From a virus (taxonomy: Duplodnaviria; Caudoviricetes), in IMG/VR virus record IMGVR_UViG_3300029288_007089, positions 8,654 to 72,653 of that record: a stretch of 64,000 nucleotides of DNA, one strand, 5' to 3'. The notes beneath the pieces were generated by a model that was not told where the DNA came from, made no database searches, and saw only the letters and a list, made by a program, of their open reading frames with translations. Both the position numbers and the translations under genes were made by a program. Of the stretch, positions 2,659-61,195 are shown in pieces (the stretch's first letter is position 1; every line of letters starts with the position of its first letter).

Positions 2659-3395
2659 TTCGGCAACGCCACAATCGTGTACTCCAGGTCGCTATCCAGC
2701 ATGGCGTCGGTGAACGGCTCCAATTTCGCGCCGAGCCGGTACAGGCCATAGCCGATACCGCGCAGTAGCGTTGGTAACCGCGCCGGCGCATCCGGGCCGC
2801 TTGCCGTCGCCAATCCTTCGCGCCAGTATTCGAGCATCAGCACGGGATATTGCCCCAACGTGAAGGGCATCCCCAGAAGCGCATTAAGCTCACAGCCCTG
2901 AATGTCCATCTTGACGAAATCGACGCGCGCGCCGTTTATGAGATCATCAATCCGCCCTACCGGAACCTCAATCGTGGCGCGCGGTTCGTGGCCGGGCACG
3001 TGAAACATGCGGTGATCGCCGTGGTTGCCGGGCGAGAGGTGCATTTGCCCGCGCCCCGCCTCATGCCCTGCCGCCGCCTCGATGACGGTTGCGGGCGCGT
3101 AGGGCGCGGCAAGTTTAGCATTCTTGCGCAGGATGGCGCACAGGTTCGGCTCCGGCTCCAGCGCAATCACGCGCCCGGTTTGCCCTACAAGGCGCGCAGC
3201 GAGCATGGTGTAGTAGCCGACGTTCGCGCCCACGTCGAGAAAGCTCATGCCGGGCTTGACGCGCTCTTGCACGAACGCCGTCTCCTGTGGCTCCCAAATG
3301 CCCCGCGCGCGCAGCACCTCCGTCACCGCGCCGGGATCGCTGGCGTCGATGTAGAGGTCAAAGCCGAGTACGGTATGACAGAGTTCGGCGGTCAC
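2655..3395 (-). CDS. FkbM-family SAM-dependent methyltransferase
   Basis: WEPQET, FLDVGANVGYYT, VIALEP, VDFVKMDIQGCE; GTG start at 3395 assumed. Confidence 0.9.
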   Translation of the reverse strand: MTAELCHTVLGFDLYIDASDPGAVTEVLRARGIWEPQETAFVQERVKPGMSFLDVGANVGYYTMLAARLVGQTGRVIALEPEPNLCAILRKNAKLAAPYAPATVIEAAAGHEAGRGQMHLSPGNHGDHRMFHVPGHEPRATIEVPVGRIDDLINGARVDFVKMDIQGCELNALLGMPFTLGQYPVLMLEYWREGLATASGPDAPARLPTLLRGIGYGLYRLGAKLEPFTDAMLDSDLEYTIVALPK

Positions 3396-3673
3396 GCCTT
3401 TCCTCCTGCCTTCCACTCGTCAGTTATCGGTTGCCAAAATTCCTGCGGCAAAGCGCGTAACATAGATGCAACTACGACAGGACCGCTGATAAGGCAGCCA
3501 AAGGCGAAAGCGCCGGCAACAATCCAATCACTGGTCAAAAGGACAATGATGACAGCCGCGATAAGAGACAGCGCCGTAGAGGGGATAATCGACAGGCATG
3601 ACAAAAGAATGATGAGCGTTGCCTTTGGTTGTAGCTTAACCCTAAACATCTTATCTAGTTCCCACTGAAACAC
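3392..3673 (-). CDS. Small membrane protein (low GC)
   Basis: 93 aa with two hydrophobic segments; overlaps neighbours in operon fashion. Confidence 0.5.
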   Translation of the reverse strand: MFQWELDKMFRVKLQPKATLIILLSCLSIIPSTALSLIAAVIIVLLTSDWIVAGAFAFGCLISGPVVVASMLRALPQEFWQPITDEWKAGGKA

Positions 3674-3933
3674 ATGTACACGAGCGTTTTGTTGCGATAG
3701 ACGATTAACGGACCAAAGCGGAATGGCGGGAAGAACATATTTTTGAGGGCGCTCAGGGTTTGTTCATCCGCTACGGTAAAGCCAAACGAAACCTCAAACG
3801 GAGTAAACTTTATGGTTTCGCGCTCTTCCGTATCATCGCTGTCGCTGGTCAGGCGGAAAGATGAAAACGACGAGAGATCAATCCGCTTTCCGTCTTCGTC
3901 TTCTAGATGTGCGCCGCTAATATTGTAGGTCAT
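3655..3933 (-). CDS. Hypothetical protein (low GC)
   Basis: ATG at 3933 overlapping the upstream stop; GGAGG RBS. Confidence 0.5.
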   Translation of the reverse strand: MTYNISGAHLEDEDGKRIDLSSFSSFRLTSDSDDTEERETIKFTPFEVSFGFTVADEQTLSALKNMFFPPFRFGPLIVYRNKTLVYMCFSGN

Positions 3934-7821: not shown

Positions 7822-8978
7822 GCCGCTTTCCACCCTTCCAGCGCCCGCTCCGCAATCACGCGCAGCACGGGCATGGCGTATTTGCCGATCACGTAGTCGA
7901 TGTCATAGTCGCGCGCGCCCTCAATCGCGCGCCGCCGGCGCTCCGGGTCGCCGCGCTCCAAATACGCCGCCTCCAGCGTCTCAACGATTGACGCAATACT
8001 GGGGCCAATCCAGAAGGCGTTTTGTTCGCTCCACTCCGGATCGCCCTCCACGAGCCAGCCGCTAAAGTTCAATTCTTTCTGCGCGCCGAAGTCGGTAGTG
8101 ATGACGGGGCAGCCGGCGCGCTGGAATTCGAGCACCGGCAGGCCAAAGCCCTCACCCCGGCTCGGCGCAATGAGCACATCGCTCGCCTGCGCCAGCGTCG
8201 CCAGTTCGCGCGCCGGGATGCCGGTGCGGTACCGGTACTGGTCGGCAATGCGCACGCGCTGTGGGTCGAGGCCGAGCGTCTTGATGATAACCGGGATGTT
8301 GACGCCGCCGAATACCGACGTGAGCAGGTTGCCCGTCTCAGACGTGTGCAGGTACAACATGGCGTCGGGGTACGTCTGCGCGAACATCTGCCACGCCACC
8401 AGCAACTCAGGGATGCCCTTCCTGCTTGGCACGCTGTCGTTGACGCCCACGAAGGACACGAGAAACACATCATCGGCCAGTCCCAGCGCCTTGCGTGCGG
8501 CGCGGCGGTCGCCGGGCTGCCACACCGCCGGGTCAACGCCGTGCGGCAGGTAGTAGCTCTCATGGCCGGCTACGCGCAGTTGCCGCTCGCCCCAACGTGT
8601 AAGCGCAATCGGCGCGCGGCACGCCGCCAGCGCGTTTGTCACCCGTTCCGGCACGGGCTGGCGATCAATGGGTGTGATGGGATACCAGGGCATGTGGCGC
8701 ATGATTTCGGGGTTCAGTCCCCAGGCGTCGATGAGAGAGATTGCCGCGTCGGCGCGGAAGTGCGCCGCGTGCCCGTGAATAATGTCGCTGCCCAGTGGGT
8801 CGAGCGCCGGCGGGAGCACCTTGACGCCTTCGACCAGCGCCGGCAGGCTGCCTGCGCCGATGCCCAAATTGAACACGGCGACCTCGTGCCCCAGGCGCTT
8901 CAGGCGCGGCACGAAAAGGCGCGACTGGATGCTATAGCCGGACTGCGAGGTGAAGTTAGCCGCCCAGAGTATGCGCAA
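7818..8978 (-). CDS. Glycosyltransferase family 4
   Basis: RKGIPELL, SDVLIAPSRGEGFGLPVLEFQRAGCPVITT; TTG start. Confidence 0.92.
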   Translation of the reverse strand: MRILWAANFTSQSGYSIQSRLFVPRLKRLGHEVAVFNLGIGAGSLPALVEGVKVLPPALDPLGSDIIHGHAAHFRADAAISLIDAWGLNPEIMRHMPWYPITPIDRQPVPERVTNALAACRAPIALTRWGERQLRVAGHESYYLPHGVDPAVWQPGDRRAARKALGLADDVFLVSFVGVNDSVPSRKGIPELLVAWQMFAQTYPDAMLYLHTSETGNLLTSVFGGVNIPVIIKTLGLDPQRVRIADQYRYRTGIPARELATLAQASDVLIAPSRGEGFGLPVLEFQRAGCPVITTDFGAQKELNFSGWLVEGDPEWSEQNAFWIGPSIASIVETLEAAYLERGDPERRRRAIEGARDYDIDYVIGKYAMPVLRVIAERALEGWKAA

Positions 8979-9300
8979 TTGTGTCGCCTCCCAACGTCCA
9001 ACCGCATTCGGGGCACCGGATGATGCCAGGGTTGTTGTGTTCGTCTACGTTCGTGAGCGCCGCGCCGCAACGCGGGCAGGTATCGGAGATGGATAAATCG
9101 CCGGCTAGTGAACTTACCAAGCGCGGCGGCGACGGTACCCACGGCGGTGGCGGCATCATCCGTCCCTCCCGCCACGCCTCGCACGCCTTGACGACAATGT
9201 AGGACACGCTGCGGTCGTCACGCGCGGCTTCCGCTTCCAGCCACGCCAGCAGGTCGTCGGGGAAGGATATGCCTCTTGCGGTCGTTGTGCGTTTGCTCAT
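8956..9300 (-). CDS. Ribbon-helix-helix (Arc/CopG-like) protein with C-terminal Zn ribbon
   Basis: GISFPDDLLAWLEAEAARDDRSVSYIV; CPRCG...CPECG. Confidence 0.7.
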   Translation of the reverse strand: MSKRTTTARGISFPDDLLAWLEAEAARDDRSVSYIVVKACEAWREGRMMPPPPWVPSPPRLVSSLAGDLSISDTCPRCGAALTNVDEHNNPGIIRCPECGWTLGGDTIAHTLGG

Positions 9301-9403
9301 TATAGACAAAGCGCCCACTGCACTTACTGCCGGCGGGCGCTCACGGGCGCACAGATGTTCAAGTCACAGTGTAGCACGGAATTGCAGCGCGTGCAAGTCA
9401 CAG

Positions 9404-9579
9404 GTCACGGTGCGCTATTCTGAGATTCGCCCACTGCAACTGCAGCACAGAACCACACCTCGGCGGGATGTCACAGTGCGCTATTCTGAGATTCGCCCAC
9501 TGCAACTTTTGCGCAACATCCTCAGGCAGAAACACAGTGCAGGTCACAGTGCGCTATTCTGAGATTCGCCCACTGCAAC
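9404..9579 (-). CRISPR. Mini CRISPR array A: 3 repeats of 37 nt (GTTGCAGTGGGCGAATCTCAGAATAGCGCACTGTGAC), 2 spacers
   Basis: Repeats at 9543-9579, 9470-9506 and 9404-9440 (last with 1 mismatch); spacers 36 nt (9507-9542) and 29 nt (9441-9469); directly downstream of a RuvC effector gene. Confidence 0.92.
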
Positions 9580-9727
9580 CCCAGTTGCAGTGCCGTGCAA
9601 AGCACGGAGTTCGGTCCAAAGCCGCCGCTAGTGGCGCGTTTTGACGCGCCAGGAACGCCGGGCGTCCCGTCTGGTCTTACGCGCGGCCCCAGGCCCAGGA
9701 TGTGTGACTGCATCCTGTTCTCAAACC
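9580..9727 (-). ncRNA. tracr/omegaRNA-like scaffold fused to first repeat of array A
   Basis: Hairpin CAGGATG-CAGTCACA-CATCCTG, hairpin CCGTGC-TTT-GCACGG, anti-repeat CACTGCAAC (9584-9592) four nt from the repeat start; homologues at 46.6 and 59.8 kb show compensatory changes. Confidence 0.8.
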
Positions 9728-11149
9728 TCATTTGGTTGTTAAAGTACTGACGTTTGCGAAACTACGATGGAACTCCCGATAACCTCCCTCCCAGTCTGCC
9801 TTGCGGTACAGCGCGCGGCGCGCAATGTTCACCGCCGCGTTGTCGTCAGAGTGGCCGGCATAACCGCACGCGCCGCAAGTCACACTGCGGTCGTCGCGGT
9901 CCATGTCCGCGCCGCACTTGTGGCAGATCACCGAACTATAGGCGGCGAACACGCGCCGGAACGGGACGCCGGCCAGCTTGCACTTGTACTCCAGGATACG
10001 GTCGAGCTTGCGGAACCGGCTCACCACGCGCCCACCGCGTACCTGCACGTTGAGGTCTTCGACCACGATGCCGGCCTGCGCATTCTGCGCCGCGCCGATC
10101 AGCGTATTGGCGAGCGTGTGCAGGATGTTGTCGTAGGCCTTCTGTTTGTAGTGACGCTTGGTGATCTTCTGCCCGTTGCGCGCCAGTTGTTCGCGTTCCT
10201 TGCCGTGCTTAAGCTGAAGCGCGCGTAAGTCATCGTCGAAGTGCCCCATCTCCAGCACCGCGCCGGTCCCGTCCACGAGCGCATACGCGGCGGTGTACAG
10301 GATGCCCTTGTCGATGCCCAGGTACGCCGCCGGCTCGTAAACGTCGGGGCACTCAACCTCAAACGTGACGTGCAGCGCATAGCCGGCGTCGCGCTTCACC
10401 AGGAACGCCGCCTTCACGCGCCCCGCCCCGTCGCGGCTCGGCTGCAAGAATTTCGCCTCGTGCCAGCCGTTGCGCCCGATCTCCAACGGCACAAGAATTG
10501 CCGAGGCGCTATTGCTCTTGAATACCTCGCCGGTATCCAGGCGCACAAGATTATCTGCGCTTGCGCCGATGGGCCTTGTCAGTTCATGGCCCTTCGGTAG
10601 CAACCACAGCGCCGCGATAAGCTGGCGCTTTTGTGTGTTCCACAAAAGAGAGAAAAGGCGATTTCGTGCCGCACCATCTGCCCCGCAGAAATAGAGTGGC
10701 ATGTATTGGCCGCGCATCCGCATGAGCATGAGGTTGCGCGCTTCGTTGTAGTCGGCTTCGTCGCCGCCTACAAGAACGAAGTCATCAAGCGCATTGTCCA
10801 CCGCGTCGGGTGCGGGATCGCGCCCTACCGGAAAGCCGGTTGCGCCGGCCATGCCATCGAGCGCATAGTAAGATGCGAGGTTACCAGCCACGTCCACAAG
10901 TAGGCTGTCTTTGGCGCTGGTGTGTAGTGCGGCATTGGGGCGCGGCAGGAGCGACATTATGGCCTTGCCGTTGTACTTGTCGCGGTACATGCCCTGTTCG
11001 CGCAACAAGTCGTCATTGTCGCGCGCCCAGTCCAACATAGCTTGATATGCCAGCGTGTATTCACGCAGTGCGTGATCCATCACCGCCGTTTTATGCGCGG
11101 AGGGATTGTGGACTTTGAAAATGCAGGTTAGGTGGATAGAATTGCTCAT
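9728..11149 (-). CDS. Compact type V effector, TnpB/Cas12f-like RNA-guided nuclease (473 aa)
   Basis: RuvC-I YLGIDKG, RuvC-II IVVEDL, Zn finger CHKCG...CGACG, RuvC-III HSDDNAAVNIA; adjacent CRISPR array; start MSNSIHL at 11149. Confidence 0.88.
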   Translation of the reverse strand: MSNSIHLTCIFKVHNPSAHKTAVMDHALREYTLAYQAMLDWARDNDDLLREQGMYRDKYNGKAIMSLLPRPNAALHTSAKDSLLVDVAGNLASYYALDGMAGATGFPVGRDPAPDAVDNALDDFVLVGGDEADYNEARNLMLMRMRGQYMPLYFCGADGAARNRLFSLLWNTQKRQLIAALWLLPKGHELTRPIGASADNLVRLDTGEVFKSNSASAILVPLEIGRNGWHEAKFLQPSRDGAGRVKAAFLVKRDAGYALHVTFEVECPDVYEPAAYLGIDKGILYTAAYALVDGTGAVLEMGHFDDDLRALQLKHGKEREQLARNGQKITKRHYKQKAYDNILHTLANTLIGAAQNAQAGIVVEDLNVQVRGGRVVSRFRKLDRILEYKCKLAGVPFRRVFAAYSSVICHKCGADMDRDDRSVTCGACGYAGHSDDNAAVNIARRALYRKADWEGGYREFHRSFANVSTLTTK

Positions 11150-11265
11150 GCTCTGACTCTCGGTAGTCGGAGGGCCGGTGGGCGTTGCTGCGCCGCGACC
11201 GGCACCGCGCATTACTATAGCACAAATGGTCTGACTGCGCAAATAGATTCTGTGGTATACTCTAA

Positions 11266-11437
11266 GTGGCGGATGATCCGGCCACCCGACCGTAACCAGC
11301 CGGCGCTGAACCGGGTGTATCCCCCGCATAAATCCACACCATCAACGAACTGCGATGGGAGCAAATCGCCTTAGTGGTGACGGGGGCCTCCGCTATATGA
11401 TGGGCACCATCAATGTAGATGGTGCCCATTCTTTTTT
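11266..11437 (+). ncRNA. Putative structured small RNA divergent from the type V gene, ending in an intrinsic terminator
   Basis: TGGTATACT -10-like box near 11254, nested complementary segments, terminator 11400-11437. Confidence 0.4.
11400..11437 (+). terminator. Intrinsic terminator
   Basis: ATGGGCACCATC-aatgta-GATGGTGCCCAT followed by TCTTTTTT. Confidence 0.8.
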
Positions 11438-59763: not shown

Positions 59764-59792
59764 TTGTCGCCTGCATTTACATTCGCTATACT
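59764..59792 (+). promoter_or_regulatory. Promoter for the stand-alone scaffold RNA
   Basis: TTGTCG(59764-69)-17-TATACT(59787-92), about 12 nt before the first scaffold hairpin. Confidence 0.6.
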
Positions 59793-59804
59793 CTCACTGT
59801 CTAT

Positions 59805-59946
59805 GGGATGCAGTCACACATCCCTGGCCTGCGATCGCCCGCGTCCGTGGCGACGGTTGCGGACCGAACTCCGCGCTTTGCGCGGCTTCCCCAAAAGGGG
59901 AGACAATGTGATGTGCCCTGGCCCCCGTCGTTCACGCGGCGGGGGC
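59805..59946 (+). ncRNA. Third, minimized copy of the guide scaffold
   Basis: GGGATG-CAGTCACA-CATCCC, GGACCGAACTCCGCGC-TTT-GCGCGG, TGTGAT at 59907-59912, then a short tail and a GC hairpin. Confidence 0.75.
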
Positions 59947-59950
59947 TTGC

Positions 59951-61195
59951 TTACAACGTCTCCAGTATCCACGCGCCGAAGCGCGCGGAGAATACCTGCC
60001 CGACGAACGGCGTCTCGAAGCCGATAGGTGCAGGCGTCGTCCAGTCTGTCATCGGCACCGTCAGCATCCCGTCCACAACTGCGATGTCCTGGTATTCGTC
60101 ATCCCACAGCATCGGGTTGCGCACGCGCACCGTACCGCTCTCCGCCAGCGCCGACACGTCCACCGCCACCGCGCCGGTCTCGTCGAAGTCGAAAACCGTG
60201 AGCGAGGCAAACCCCGGCGCGTACTCGTTCGGCACGAAATTGGTAAACTGCCCGGTGGTTGTGGCGACGACCTCCTGAATGTCGTAGACGCCGCCGGGCA
60301 GCTCGATATTGGTCCAGTCGTCCACCGTGAACACGTTGCCCGTCACCGTCGCCTGCTCCCAACGCTTCAGGTAGAACGCCTCCGCGCCGTAGGGATCGTG
60401 CAGATACGGGTCGATCACGCAGTCCTTTATCAGCGCGACGCCGTTGATCGCCACCTCATCCTCCTGGATATACAGACCCAGGCATGGATGGCCGTTGTGG
60501 ATGAACAGGCGTTCCACGCTCAAGTTTTTATTGAATCGATTGCCAGAGGTGAACGCGCGGTTGGCGACCGTAATGTCCTCGAAGACGAACGTGCCATAGC
60601 ACCAGTCGCCCGCGCCAACCTGTACATGCCGAAACGAGTTAAGAAACAGGCAGTTGCGGAACGTCTTCGTGTCCGCCGCGTCGGTGCAGGATGTGTAGAC
60701 ACTTGGTCCGTGCGGGCGGTCGCTGCCCACCCAGCCGTTGTCCGTGATGACGACGCCGTAGGCCTGCCCGCCGCCGTTGAGGAACCACGAGATGCCCGTG
60801 CCCGGCACGTTGTGGATGCGCACGTTGATGAACTCCATACCGGGGATGTTGTTGGCGTAGAGGCCGGAGTGCTGCCCCGGCACGGTCGGCGTCTCCGTGC
60901 TCGTGCGCTCCGTGAGCGTGTCGTCGATGATGAGGCCGTAATCCTCAGACAGCCAGCGCACGTAACCGCCAGACGGTTGTTGCACCACGTCGCCGCGCAG
61001 CACCGCTATCTCGCCGGGGTAGTTGCGTATGGTGATCGGCTCATCCGGCGTGCCTTGCAGCGTGCAGGATAGCGCCGTCTCCAGGTCGTACACCCCGCCG
61101 CGCAGGTAGACCGTGTGCCCCGACTGGATGTCCGGCCAGGACATGCCGGTGCGGATGTCGAAGGGAAACTCCTTGCTGCCGTTGCCGAGGATCAT
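59951..61195 (-). CDS. Right-handed beta-helix (pectin-lyase-like) tail/depolymerase protein
   Basis: G.TVYLRGGVY, GTPDEPITIRNYPGE, INVRIHN, HGPSVY repeats. Confidence 0.75.
   Translation of the reverse strand: MILGNGSKEFPFDIRTGMSWPDIQSGHTVYLRGGVYDLETALSCTLQGTPDEPITIRNYPGEIAVLRGDVVQQPSGGYVRWLSEDYGLIIDDTLTERTSTETPTVPGQHSGLYANNIPGMEFINVRIHNVPGTGISWFLNGGGQAYGVVITDNGWVGSDRPHGPSVYTSCTDAADTKTFRNCLFLNSFRHVQVGAGDWCYGTFVFEDITVANRAFTSGNRFNKNLSVERLFIHNGHPCLGLYIQEDEVAINGVALIKDCVIDPYLHDPYGAEAFYLKRWEQATVTGNVFTVDDWTNIELPGGVYDIQEVVATTTGQFTNFVPNEYAPGFASLTVFDFDETGAVAVDVSALAESGTVRVRNPMLWDDEYQDIAVVDGMLTVPMTDWTTPAPIGFETPFVGQVFSARFGAWILETL

What the first reader, a model, noticed from the sequence alone, without database searches (positions are those of the whole stretch)
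9404..11149. Phage-encoded compact type V system with a naturally fused tracr-repeat single guide
Seen: a 473-aa RuvC protein with all three catalytic residues (GIDKG, VEDL, DDNAA) and a Zn finger. Its stop codon runs straight into a scaffold of about 150 nt. The scaffold's anti-repeat CACTGCAAC is joined by a 4-nt loop (TGGG) to the first repeat's GTTGCAGTG. The loop of the first scaffold hairpin (GTCACA) is complementary to the repeat 3' end (TGTGAC), a pseudoknot right before the spacer. Three 37-nt repeats and two spacers follow. Known: TnpB omegaRNAs are single RNAs, whereas Cas12f uses a separate tracrRNA and crRNA. Inference: this is an intermediate between TnpB and Cas12f, co-opted by a phage. 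It lacks cas1/cas2 and sits inside the head operon.
Basis: partly seen in the sequence, partly recalled or inferred. Interest (0 to 1): 0.92.

Follow-up and report, generated by a model that had tools for sequence, protein, structure and literature searches.

The report
Phage TnpB-to-CRISPR intermediate nuclease locus
A prophage carries a small TnpB/Cas12f-like RNA-guided nuclease whose guide-RNA scaffold is joined directly to the first repeat of a three-repeat CRISPR array, a real example of the recently described transposon-to-CRISPR intermediates rather than a new kind of system.

Summary
On the minus strand lie a 473-aa RuvC/zinc-ribbon nuclease (9728-11149) and a 144-nt scaffold. An anti-repeat (CACTGCAAC) is joined by TGGG to the first of three 37-nt repeats, with spacers of 36 and 29 nt.

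The scaffold fold and the pseudoknot (hairpin loop GTCACA with repeat end TGTGAC) are supported by compensatory changes across 14-15 related loci.

The protein belongs to a rare, mostly phage-borne family: 129 relatives passed the E cut-off among the candidates scored. The catalytic D-E-D and four Cys are invariant in the 34 aligned. Nearly all members with enough downstream DNA carry arrays of 2-11 repeats. Spacers are mostly 35-38 nt.

Its nearest solved structures are Cas12f (AsCas12f, OsCas12f). It passes no curated TnpB or Cas12 cut-off.

The same provirus holds two more scaffold copies. One (46.4-46.7 kb) is a 5'-truncated gene remnant plus scaffold plus one repeat, ending exactly where a disrupted host-phage gene resumes. 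The other (59.8 kb) is a compact copy with a promoter-like site.

No cas1, tnpA or serine recombinase was found in the record.

This matches the published "TranC"/type V-U concept, so it is a new member of a known kind. No spacer target, PAM or RNA evidence was found. Earlier notes of this scan cover only this same genome.

The parts
9728..11149 (-). Nuclease gene, 473 aa (P0001): TnpB/Cas12f-like, with RuvC D280/E364/D435 and a CxxC...CxxC zinc ribbon
   Evidence: Translation. Pfam PF07282 at 9e-18. NCBIfam guided_TnpB 91.5 bits, below the cut-off of 100. Catalytic and Cys residues invariant in 34 homologues. AF2 model pLDDT 87.3. Best Foldseek hits are AsCas12f and OsCas12f.
9728..9875 (-). 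3' end of the ORF that is probably also the 5' part of the guide-RNA scaffold (inferred)
   Evidence: This stretch is kept in the 5'-truncated solo copy at 46.4 kb (read laying record 6). A shorter stretch is kept in L065. The invariant GCAA in TTTCGCAAA can pair with TTGC of the repeat start; that pairing never varies, so it is untested.
9584..9727 (-). Scaffold downstream of the stop codon: hairpin 1 (9717-9696), a long-range helix, GAAC, the last hairpin CCGTGCTTTGCACGG (9607-9593) and the anti-repeat CACTGCAAC (9592-9584)
   Evidence: RNAalifold and pair counts: hairpin 1 has 6 of 7 pairs with changes on both sides, the long-range helix 8 of 10, the last hairpin 5 of 6. Covariance model R1 scores 177.9 bits here. 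No Rfam family matches.
9703..9708 (-). Loop GTCACA of hairpin 1, pseudoknot partner of the repeat 3' end TGTGAC
   Evidence: 100% paired in 14 sequences, with 2 pairs changed on both sides. In the wider family: GTTACA/TGTAAC, GTCTCA/TGAGAC, GTCGTA/TACGAC, GTCGTG/CACGAC.
9580..9583 (-). TGGG loop that joins the anti-repeat to repeat 1 (the cis fusion)
   Evidence: Sequence. The same 4-nt join, with a compensated stem, is seen in window copy 2 and in L072.
9404..9579 (-). Mini-array: repeat 1 (9579-9543), spacer 1 (9542-9507, 36 nt), repeat 2 (9506-9470), spacer 2 (9469-9441, 29 nt), repeat 3 (9440-9404)
   Evidence: the repeat finder family D1. Family-wide arrays of 2-11 repeats.
9300..9403 (-). 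Post-array stretch with decayed repeat fragments (..CTACACTGTGAC.. and ..GTGCAGTGGGCG..). It would be the guide of the last repeat.
   Evidence: families D2, D4. Contigs of relatives share the flank 9200-9398 and diverge at about 9399, 5 nt past the last repeat.
46384..46765 (+). Solo copy 2. Nine codons of a disrupted phage gene, then the nuclease remnant (aa 414-472, stop at 46554-46556), the scaffold (46557-46704) and one repeat (46705-46741). The disrupted gene then resumes in frame and would act as the guide.
   Evidence: tblastn 78% identity. Alignment with compensatory changes in three stems. R1 scores 176.6 bits. The 3' flank is homologous to the C-terminus of the intact paralogue at 42891-43337 from the first base after the repeat.
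59764..59952 (+). Solo copy 3. Promoter-like TTGTCG-17-TATACT, then a compact scaffold (59786-59917). The repeat:anti-repeat stem is replaced by a short CTCCCC/GGGGAG hairpin and the end reads TGTGAT. A hairpin-forming 23-mer flanks it on both sides (59730 and 59930).
   Evidence: R1 60 bits, E 1.6e-14, full model span. Sequence. The flanking 23-mer occurs only at these two places in the window.

Best explanation
This is a phage-borne, TnpB-derived, Cas12f-like RNA-guided DNA nuclease caught between the transposon (omega/right-end RNA) state and the CRISPR state. In published terms it is a TranC-like, type V-U variant.

Proposed mechanism (inferred by analogy to TnpB and Cas12f, except where marked as shown):
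1. The nuclease mRNA reads through into the scaffold and the array.
2. The scaffold starts in the last ~50-150 nt of the ORF. It folds into hairpin 1, a long-range helix and a terminal hairpin (fold shown by covariation).
3. Each repeat is held at two sites. Its 5' part pairs with the anti-repeat. Its last six bases pair with the loop of hairpin 1, a pseudoknot that places the spacer as the guide (pseudoknot shown by covariation).
4. For repeat 1 both contacts are in cis, through the 4-nt TGGG join, which gives a natural single-guide RNA.
5. Repeats 2 and 3 would have to use a scaffold in trans, which is the functional RNA split.
6. The RNP would cut PAM-flanked DNA matching the spacers. The likely targets are competing phages or other mobile elements, since the phage has no cas1/cas2.
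7. Two further scaffold copies elsewhere in the provirus (one full repeat, one compact with a promoter-like site) would supply extra fixed guides to the single intact nuclease.
8. New spacers probably come from host adaptation enzymes acting in trans, or from recombination between repeats.
For: Protein:
- RuvC D-E-D and four Cys are invariant in 34 homologues.
- The AF2 model is confident, pLDDT 87.3.
- Nearest solved structures are AsCas12f and OsCas12f, E 1e-18 to 1e-16, TM about 0.55-0.63. The profile search agrees, AsCas12f at 1e-19.

RNA:
- Covariation supports three helices and the pseudoknot.
- Model R1 finds three copies in the window and copies next to most homologues.
- The anti-repeat/repeat stem is compensated in copy 2 and in L072.

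CRISPR character:
- Relatives carry arrays of 2-11 repeats right after the gene.
- 46 of 52 spacers in the 37-nt-repeat clades are 35-38 nt.
- Loci with the same or near-identical nuclease differ in spacer content: L005 against L006, L017 against L018. A 93%-identical variant in another landfill sample has a different sequence after repeat 1.

Transposon character:
- Copy 2 ends exactly at the repeat end inside a disrupted gene.
- Relatives carry compact fused forms and tandem scaffold units.

Phage context:
- The record is an IMG/VR provirus with portal, terminase and capsid genes.
- Homologue loci show phage contexts.

No minus-strand terminator is predicted between the gene and the array.
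Against: - No RNA, cleavage, PAM or target evidence exists.
- No protospacer was found for any window spacer in the window, the phage database or the viral contigs.
- Family-wide, the 28 nt upstream of the first repeat do not pair better with the cognate repeat than with non-cognate repeats (-14.2 against -13.3 kcal/mol). The anti-repeat stem is therefore supported only in this sub-lineage.
- The repeat can also fold on itself, and the MFE structure prefers that.
- How repeats 2 and 3 would get a scaffold is unexplained.
- Spacer 2 (29 nt) is off the family's length norm.
Confidence: 0.72

Rival explanations
1. It is essentially a non-autonomous TnpB transposon or homing element. The repeat is the transposon right end. 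The array and the dispersed copies are by-products of repeated insertion, tandem duplication and recombination of right ends. The nuclease serves element retention or homing, not defence.
For: - Copy 2 ends precisely at the repeat end inside a disrupted gene, so its would-be guide is flanking DNA, as in omega-RNAs.
- L072 and L003 carry whole scaffold units (gene remnant plus scaffold plus repeat) placed directly after another repeat.
- B-type relatives end in a compact fused scaffold followed by flank.
- No cas1 and no spacer targets were found.
Against: - The record has no Y1 TnpA and no serine recombinase.
- Only one intact nuclease copy is present.
- Spacers are unique and mostly 35-38 nt, with up to 11 repeats. 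This points to a ruler-type acquisition rather than random flanks.
- The junction sequences of copy 2, L072 and L003 share no common adjacent motif by eye.
Confidence: 0.17
2. The locus is a decaying relic, with a nuclease or RNA no longer in use. The repeats are leftovers without present function.
For: - Degenerate repeat fragments follow repeat 3.
- Repeat 3 carries a change that weakens the pseudoknot.
- The provirus also holds a gutted second tnpB and truncated copies.
- No targets were found.
Against: - The ORF is intact and all catalytic and zinc ligands are conserved.
- Compensatory substitutions keep every stem between diverged copies.
- The architecture is conserved across a family with 48 clusters (50% identity) at E <= 1e-30.
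Confidence: 0.06
3. It works as an RNA-guided DNA binder or regulator of phage or host genes, like TldR or Cas12m, rather than as a cutter. The fixed guides of copies 2 and 3 would aim at phage or host promoters.
For: - Two solo guide genes carry fixed guides, one of them with a promoter-like site.
- A small RHH plus zinc-ribbon gene follows the array directly.
Against: - The RuvC D-E-D triad is invariant, whereas known repressor derivatives have lost it (PMC10691335, PMC13565253).
- No second match to any guide exists in the window.
Confidence: 0.05

Closest known systems
TranC, transposon-CRISPR intermediates (Jin et al., Cell 2025; known here only through citing papers PMC13565253 and bioRxiv 10.64898/2026.03.27.714800)
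   Same: - A TnpB-sized nuclease with a right-end/omega-type scaffold at the 3' end of the gene and a CRISPR array downstream.
- No adaptation genes.
- The idea that the single RNA is functionally split into tracrRNA and crRNA.
- Phage-borne examples exist (CauTranC9). Repeats of 32-38 nt and median arrays of about 5 repeats are similar.
   Different: - Sequence relation to the solved LaTranC is marginal: E 5e-5, zinc-ribbon region only.
- Whether this family equals one of the numbered TranC clades could not be checked, because no sequences were available.
- Here the anti-repeat is covalently joined to repeat 1, and the same genome also holds two solo scaffold copies.
Cas12f / type V-F (AsCas12f, OsCas12f, Un1Cas12f1)
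   Same: - Best structural and profile matches.
- Size class, RuvC plus zinc-ribbon TNB domain, and an array downstream.
- Guide RNA with a repeat:anti-repeat stem plus a second contact (pseudoknot) at the repeat 3' end next to the guide. The comparison of RNA layout rests on my knowledge of the published Cas12f sgRNA structures.
   Different: - Only 15-17% identity in structural alignments.
- NCBIfam Cas12f2 scores 74 bits against a cut-off of 450.
- The N-terminal half has no sequence match.
- The tracr part is physically fused to repeat 1.
- Dimerisation was not tested.
IS200/IS605 and IS607 TnpB with omega/right-end RNA (ISDra2)
   Same: - RuvC/TNB core.
- The RNA overlaps the 3' end of the ORF and has a pseudoknot next to the guide.
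- Copies 2 and 3 have a single guide that is simply the flanking DNA.
   Different: - No TnpA or serine recombinase.
- The score is below the NCBIfam guided_TnpB cut-off, 91.5 against 100.
- A repeat-spacer array with regular 35-38 nt spacers is present.
- There is one intact gene per genome.
Type V-U variants V-U6 to V-U45 (Altae-Tran et al. 2023, PMC10691335)
   Same: TnpB branches that are stably linked to a downstream CRISPR array without cas1/2/4. Many are known only from metagenomes. The arrays are thought to arise by duplication of omega-RNA segments.
   Different: Assignment to a particular V-U branch could not be tested here. That paper reports no natural cis fusion or co-resident solo copies in the passages I read.
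Cas12p ('Cas12 hacker', bioRxiv 10.1101/2025.01.20.633832) and other phage type V effectors (Cas-phi, Cas-lambda)
   Same: Compact type V effectors carried by phages without adaptation genes. They are thought to act against rival nucleic acids.
   Different: - Cas12p is 500-700 aa and is only marginally related: E 5e-4, Foldseek rank 44.
- Cas-phi and Cas-lambda use crRNA only.

Membership tests
TnpB (OMEGA, IS200/IS605-IS607) | RuvC D-E-D nuclease with a C-terminal zinc-ribbon (TNB) domain | tested here: met
   Motifs. PF07282 at 9e-18. Invariant D280/E364/D435 and four Cys.
TnpB (OMEGA, IS200/IS605-IS607) | Score above the curated family cut-off (NCBIfam guided_TnpB, IS200_TnpB, IS607_TnpB) | tested here: not met
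   91.5 against 100 bits, 35.1 against 425, and 42.5 against 350. All 34 members match these models at E <= 1e-5, but whether the other members clear the cut-offs was not tabulated.
TnpB (OMEGA, IS200/IS605-IS607) | Partner transposase (Y1 TnpA or serine recombinase), or multiple mobile copies | tested here: not met
   No PF01797 and no PF00239 in the 72.6-kb record. One intact copy plus one C-terminal fragment. The record is only about 65% complete.
TnpB (OMEGA, IS200/IS605-IS607) | A single RNA that overlaps the ORF 3' end, with the guide being the DNA flanking the right end | tested here: met
   Met for copy 2, whose junction lies exactly at the repeat end inside a disrupted gene. Copy 3 is a compact scaffold followed by flank. 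Not the state of the main locus, which carries an array.
Cas12f (type V-F) | Curated Cas12f model cut-off | tested here: not met
   NCBIfam Cas12f2 scores 74.4 bits against a cut-off of 450. PADLOC Cas12f models give partial matches, 1e-18 to 1e-14, over aa 245-448 only.
Cas12f (type V-F) | Fold closest to solved Cas12f | tested here: met
   Foldseek ranks 1-8 are AsCas12f or OsCas12f chains, E 1e-18 to 1e-16, TM 0.53-0.64 for the A chains. ISDra2 TnpB is at rank 23.
Cas12f (type V-F) | Adjacent CRISPR array, and a tracr-type RNA that pairs with the repeat at two sites | tested here: met
   Array. The pseudoknot is supported by covariation. The anti-repeat stem is compensated in this sub-lineage but is not supported family-wide.
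Cas12f (type V-F) | Asymmetric homodimer on one guide RNA | not tested
   No complex prediction was run.
TranC (transposon-CRISPR intermediate) | A TnpB-like protein linked to both a right-end-type scaffold and a CRISPR array | tested here: met
TranC (transposon-CRISPR intermediate) | Uses both the CRISPR RNA and the single right-end RNA as guides | not testable with these tools
   Needs RNA sequencing and cleavage assays. No RNA holder was listed among public runs.
TranC (transposon-CRISPR intermediate) | Membership of a described TranC clade | tested here: inconclusive
   LaTranC matches at only E 5e-5 over the zinc ribbon.
Adaptive CRISPR-Cas system | Own adaptation module (cas1, cas2) | tested here: not met
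   No Cas1 (PF01867) in the record. None is seen in the homologue loci.

The most novel reading that the evidence does not exclude
In this family, arrays grow without Cas1-Cas2. The element's own right end (the repeat) is copied together with new flanking DNA through transposition- or homing-type events and repeat recombination. The three states in this one provirus (array, right-end junction copy, compact promoter-linked copy) and the tandem scaffold units in relatives would then be direct snapshots of how an omega-RNA became a CRISPR array. The phage would run one nuclease with several dispersed guide genes.
Probability: 0.12. Interest if true: 0.9.

Novelty: new member of a known kind. Interest (0 to 1): 0.6.

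Why it matters
How CRISPR arrays and tracrRNAs arose from the single RNA of TnpB transposons has only recently become testable. This family offers natural material for that test.
- One locus has the scaffold still joined to the first repeat while further repeats follow.
- The same phage genome holds a right-end-junction copy and a minimised copy with a promoter-like site.
- Relatives have the scaffold before or after the array.

A small set of constructs could therefore test cis against trans use of the scaffold, the role of the pseudoknot, and how spacers are gained.

The protein is also a compact (473 aa) candidate genome editor with a ready-made natural single-guide design.

For phage biology, it adds to the evidence that temperate phages carry RNA-guided nucleases, probably for conflicts with other mobile elements.

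Tried and rejected
- Spacer targets. The two spacers, the post-array guide and the copy-2 guide have no second match in the window at up to 3 mismatches. There are no meaningful hits in the phage database (only E = 8 noise). There is no exact 20-mer match in IMG/VR. 121 spacers from all fetched loci gave no cross-matches apart from duplicate contigs.
- Second array. The array at 42.3 kb has no phage-database hit.
- Repeat elsewhere. The window's repeat was not found in genome contigs or viral contigs, so no host array with this repeat was identified.
- Close relatives in IMG/VR. A single-protein scan found none. The alignment-based scan found 8 loci.
- RNA evidence. No RNA holder was listed among public runs. 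The run labelled RNA-Seq is probably DNA and is held as contigs, so it says nothing on expression.
- Rfam. No family matches at gathering score, and only chance-level hits appear at E <= 1.
- Anti-repeat co-evolution. Cognate and non-cognate duplex energies do not differ family-wide, so I do not claim a family-wide anti-repeat stem.
- Assignment to published clades. No supplementary text is held for the 2026 preprint, and a family peptide motif occurs in no paper.
- The small ORF after the array (8956-9300). It is not a significant relative of the nuclease.
- Pseudoalteromonas phage J2-1 homologue. No repeats were found downstream.
- A consistent TAM from the three junctions (copy 2, L072, L003). 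None was apparent by eye; this was not pursued.
Full report
**What is there.** The feature lies on the minus strand.
- An ORF from 11149 to 9728 encodes 473 aa (P0001). It carries GIDKG, VEDL and DDNAA motifs and a CxxC...CxxC zinc ribbon.
- After the stop codon come 144 nt of non-coding sequence.
- Next is the anti-repeat CACTGCAAC (9592-9584), a TGGG loop, and repeat 1, which begins GTTGCAGTG.
- There are three 37-nt repeats (9579-9543, 9506-9470, 9440-9404). The spacers are 36 and 29 nt.
- The first scaffold hairpin (9717-9696) has the loop GTCACA, complementary to the repeat end TGTGAC.

**The protein.**
- Pfam sees only the Cas12f1-like TNB domain.
- NCBIfam gives guided_TnpB at 91.5 bits (cut-off 100) and Cas12f2 at 74 bits (cut-off 450), with weaker CasX and IS607/IS200 TnpB matches.
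- PADLOC Cas12f and Cas12u models match the C-terminal half only.
- An AlphaFold model built on 34 homologues is confident, pLDDT 87.3.
- Foldseek puts AsCas12f and OsCas12f first (E 1e-18 to 1e-16, TM about 0.55-0.63). CasX, CnCas12f1 and ISDra2 TnpB follow. Cas12p ('hacker') is only at rank 44.
- A profile search of PDB sequences agrees: AsCas12f 1e-19, LaTranC 5e-5, Cas12p 5e-4.

The protein is therefore a TnpB-derived nuclease nearest to Cas12f in fold, and it passes none of the curated family cut-offs examined.

**The family.**
- A word-seeded search gave 129 homologues at E <= 0.001 among the 8000 candidates scored. The 120 listed share 34-95% identity, and nearly all come from metagenomes.
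- An exhaustive search of 1.84 billion cluster representatives found 48 clusters at E <= 1e-30 and 274 at E <= 1e-10. The family is rare.
- D280, E364, D435 and the four Cys are invariant in 34 aligned members.
- Contexts are phage-like: DnaB, holin, methylases. Eight IMG/VR contigs carry it, one of them a complete 105-kb genome. Only four MAG contigs in GTDB species genomes carry it.
- The window itself is an IMG/VR provirus with portal, large terminase and capsid-like genes upstream and a glycosyltransferase block downstream on the same strand.
- Distant full-length relatives (27% identity) sit in 182 cultured Salinibacter ruber phage records. In the one I opened, seven 30-nt repeats follow the gene.

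**The RNA.** Downstream of nearly every homologue with enough sequence lie the same scaffold and a repeat array of 2-11 units.

On 14 aligned scaffolds, RNAalifold recovers hairpin 1, a long-range helix and the last hairpin. With the pseudoknot added, the pair counts are as follows.

| Measure | Observed | Shuffled | Slid controls |
|---|---|---|---|
| Cells that form a standard pair | 94.3% | 77.9% | 27-42% |
| Covariation score | 0.504 | 0.175 (0 of 500 reach it) | about 0.1 |

| Helix | Pairs changed on both sides |
|---|---|
| Hairpin 1 | 6 of 7 |
| Long-range helix | 8 of 10 |
| Last hairpin | 5 of 6 |

- The pseudoknot is 100% paired. It switches in concert in other clades: GTTACA/TGTAAC, GTCTCA/TGAGAC, GTCGTA/TACGAC, GTCGTG/CACGAC.
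- By my knowledge of the published Cas12f sgRNA and TnpB omega-RNA structures, this is the same two-site grip on the repeat.
- The anti-repeat stem is compensated within this sub-lineage: CACCGCAAC/GTTGCGGTG in copy 2, and a wobble-paired version in L072.
- Across the family, the upstream 28 nt pair no better with the cognate repeat than with other repeats. I claim the stem only locally.
- The repeat termini GTTGCA/TGTGAC can also pair with each other, and the MFE fold prefers that.
- No Rfam family matches.

**More copies in the same provirus.** A covariance model built from 15 scaffolds finds three hits in the window.

| Copy | Position | Score |
|---|---|---|
| Main locus | 9543-9736 (-) | 178 bits |
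| Copy 2 | 46549-46741 (+) | 177 bits |
| Copy 3 | 59786-59917 (+) | 60 bits, E 1.6e-14 |

Copy 2:
- It keeps only the last 59 codons of the nuclease (78% identity), the scaffold and one repeat.
- It sits inside a gene whose intact paralogue lies at 42891-43337. Nine N-terminal codons precede it.
- The C-terminus (LVLAAHAALQAGWLE...) resumes in frame 2 nt after TGTGAC. DNA homology to the paralogue starts at the first base after the repeat.
- The repeat end therefore behaves as the right end of an inserted element, and the would-be guide is flanking DNA. This is the omega-RNA state.

Copy 3:
- It is compact and is preceded by TTGTCG-17-TATACT.
- The repeat:anti-repeat stem is replaced by a short hairpin, and the end reads TGTGAT.
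- It is bracketed by a duplicated hairpin-forming 23-mer that occurs nowhere else in the window.

Earlier first-reader notes of this scan, on this same genome, pointed me to copies 2 and 3 and to a second array. I re-derived each here.

**Variety in relatives.**
- L016, L017, L052 and L058 have gene, then array, then a full scaffold that ends in a fused half-repeat plus flank.
- L003 has a compact fused unit followed by a second scaffold with five repeats.
- L072 has a nuclease 95% identical to the window's. Its first scaffold-repeat is followed directly by a 45-nt gene remnant, a second scaffold of the window's copy-2 type, and further repeats.
- L065 is another truncated solo copy, in a complete phage genome that lacks a full cognate nuclease.
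- L044 and L045 have a single repeat, as does L021, which belongs to the L016/L017 lineage. L005 has one full repeat plus a 12-nt repeat fragment.
- Spacer content differs between loci with the same or near-identical nucleases: L005 against L006, L017 against L018.
- In another landfill sample, a 93%-identical variant carries a different sequence after repeat 1. Contigs of relatives share the flank 9200-9398 and diverge about 5 nt beyond the last repeat.
- In the 37-nt-repeat clades, 46 of 52 spacers are 35-38 nt. This argues for a measured acquisition process.

**What is absent.**
- The 72.6-kb record has no Cas1, no Y1 TnpA and no serine recombinase. CheckV estimates it at 65% complete.
- No spacer target was found anywhere I could search.
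- No PAM could be inferred.
- There is no RNA evidence.

**Interpretation.** The best reading is a phage-borne, TnpB-derived, Cas12f-like RNA-guided nuclease at the omega-RNA-to-CRISPR transition.
- Shown here: a conserved intact nuclease, a conserved structured scaffold with a pseudoknot to the repeat end, the cis join to repeat 1, CRISPR-like arrays across the family, and a right-end-type junction in copy 2.
- Inferred: co-transcription, processing, trans use of the scaffold by later repeats, DNA cleavage, a role in conflicts between mobile elements, and the source of spacers.

The main rival is a homing or transposon element whose arrays are by-products. The junction copy and the tandem units keep it alive. 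The regular unique spacers and the lack of a transposase weaken it.

**Comparison with the literature.**
- Independent captures of TnpB by arrays are well documented, with the array downstream 'mimicking the location of the omega-RNA': 40 V-U branches in PMC10691335 and about 50 events in PMC12669027.
- The intermediate class has been named TranC. Functional splitting of the right-end RNA into tracrRNA and crRNA is proposed as the key step (Jin et al. 2025, as cited in PMC13565253 and bioRxiv 10.64898/2026.03.27.714800). The preprint also reports a phage-borne TranC.
- Phage-encoded compact Cas12p is described in bioRxiv 10.1101/2025.01.20.633832.

I could not test whether this family is one of the numbered TranC or V-U clades.

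What may add to the published picture:
- the covalent join at repeat 1;
- three scaffold states in one genome;
- the before-array and after-array scaffold arrangements within one protein family.

**Verdict.** This is a new member of a known kind, with interest about 0.6.

Noticed in passing
window 41798-42560 (+): A second guide locus of another lineage. A structured ~116-nt leader (41798-41913) is followed by a gutted tnpB, of which only a 121-aa ORF with the HTH_OrfB_IS605 N-terminus remains (41920-42285). Four 37-nt repeats GTTGCAACCGTCAACCTCCGGAGGTGGAGGGTGCTAG follow (42304-42560), with 37, 37 and 35-nt spacers. The repeat end does not match the GTCACA loop, so the intact nuclease probably cannot use it. 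The leader is 85% identical to the leader in front of the 95%-identical nuclease in L072.
   Followed up: partly
window 8956-9300 (-): The gene right after the array encodes a 114-aa protein with a weak CopG-like RHH N-terminus and a CxxC...CxxC zinc ribbon. It is not significantly related to the nuclease. It may be a regulator.
   Followed up: partly
window 49865-54428 (+): Another first-reader note calls this a phage-borne type IV-B Cas operon. I confirmed only the CysH-like PAPS-reductase domain in 53212-54177. The three other ORFs tested in that block (50253-51122, 51367-52335, 52142-53005) gave no Pfam match. If the call is right, this provirus carries several RNA-guided systems.
   Followed up: partly
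window 47302-48300 (+): A tyrosine integrase (Phage_integrase plus SAM-like N domain) lies about 560 nt downstream of solo scaffold copy 2.
   Followed up: no
window 11251-11324: Contigs from four different metagenome runs all break away from the window at 11324, and at 11251-11290. A short ~70-nt segment upstream of the nuclease therefore occurs in several contexts. A strong intrinsic terminator on the + strand lies at 11399-11430.
   Followed up: no
L047:717-755: The first spacer of an 11-repeat array in a distant family member resembles the 3' end of tRNA-Asn genes of phages (91% over 35 nt, E 1e-3). This may point to a tRNA gene or an attachment site as target.
   Followed up: no
L071 (Salinibacter phage 1_25, OR896199.1) 3391-3808: Cultured Salinibacter ruber phages carry a distant homologue of the nuclease, annotated as hypothetical. 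About 550 nt downstream of it lie seven 30-nt repeats. This would be a tractable laboratory system for this kind of locus.
   Followed up: partly
L068/L069 (complete 105.6-kb phage, G001:C1:22008-25070): This complete phage genome has a solo truncated remnant plus scaffold plus repeat, and no full cognate nuclease. A different TnpB-like ORF of 371 aa lies 2.3 kb downstream.
   Followed up: no
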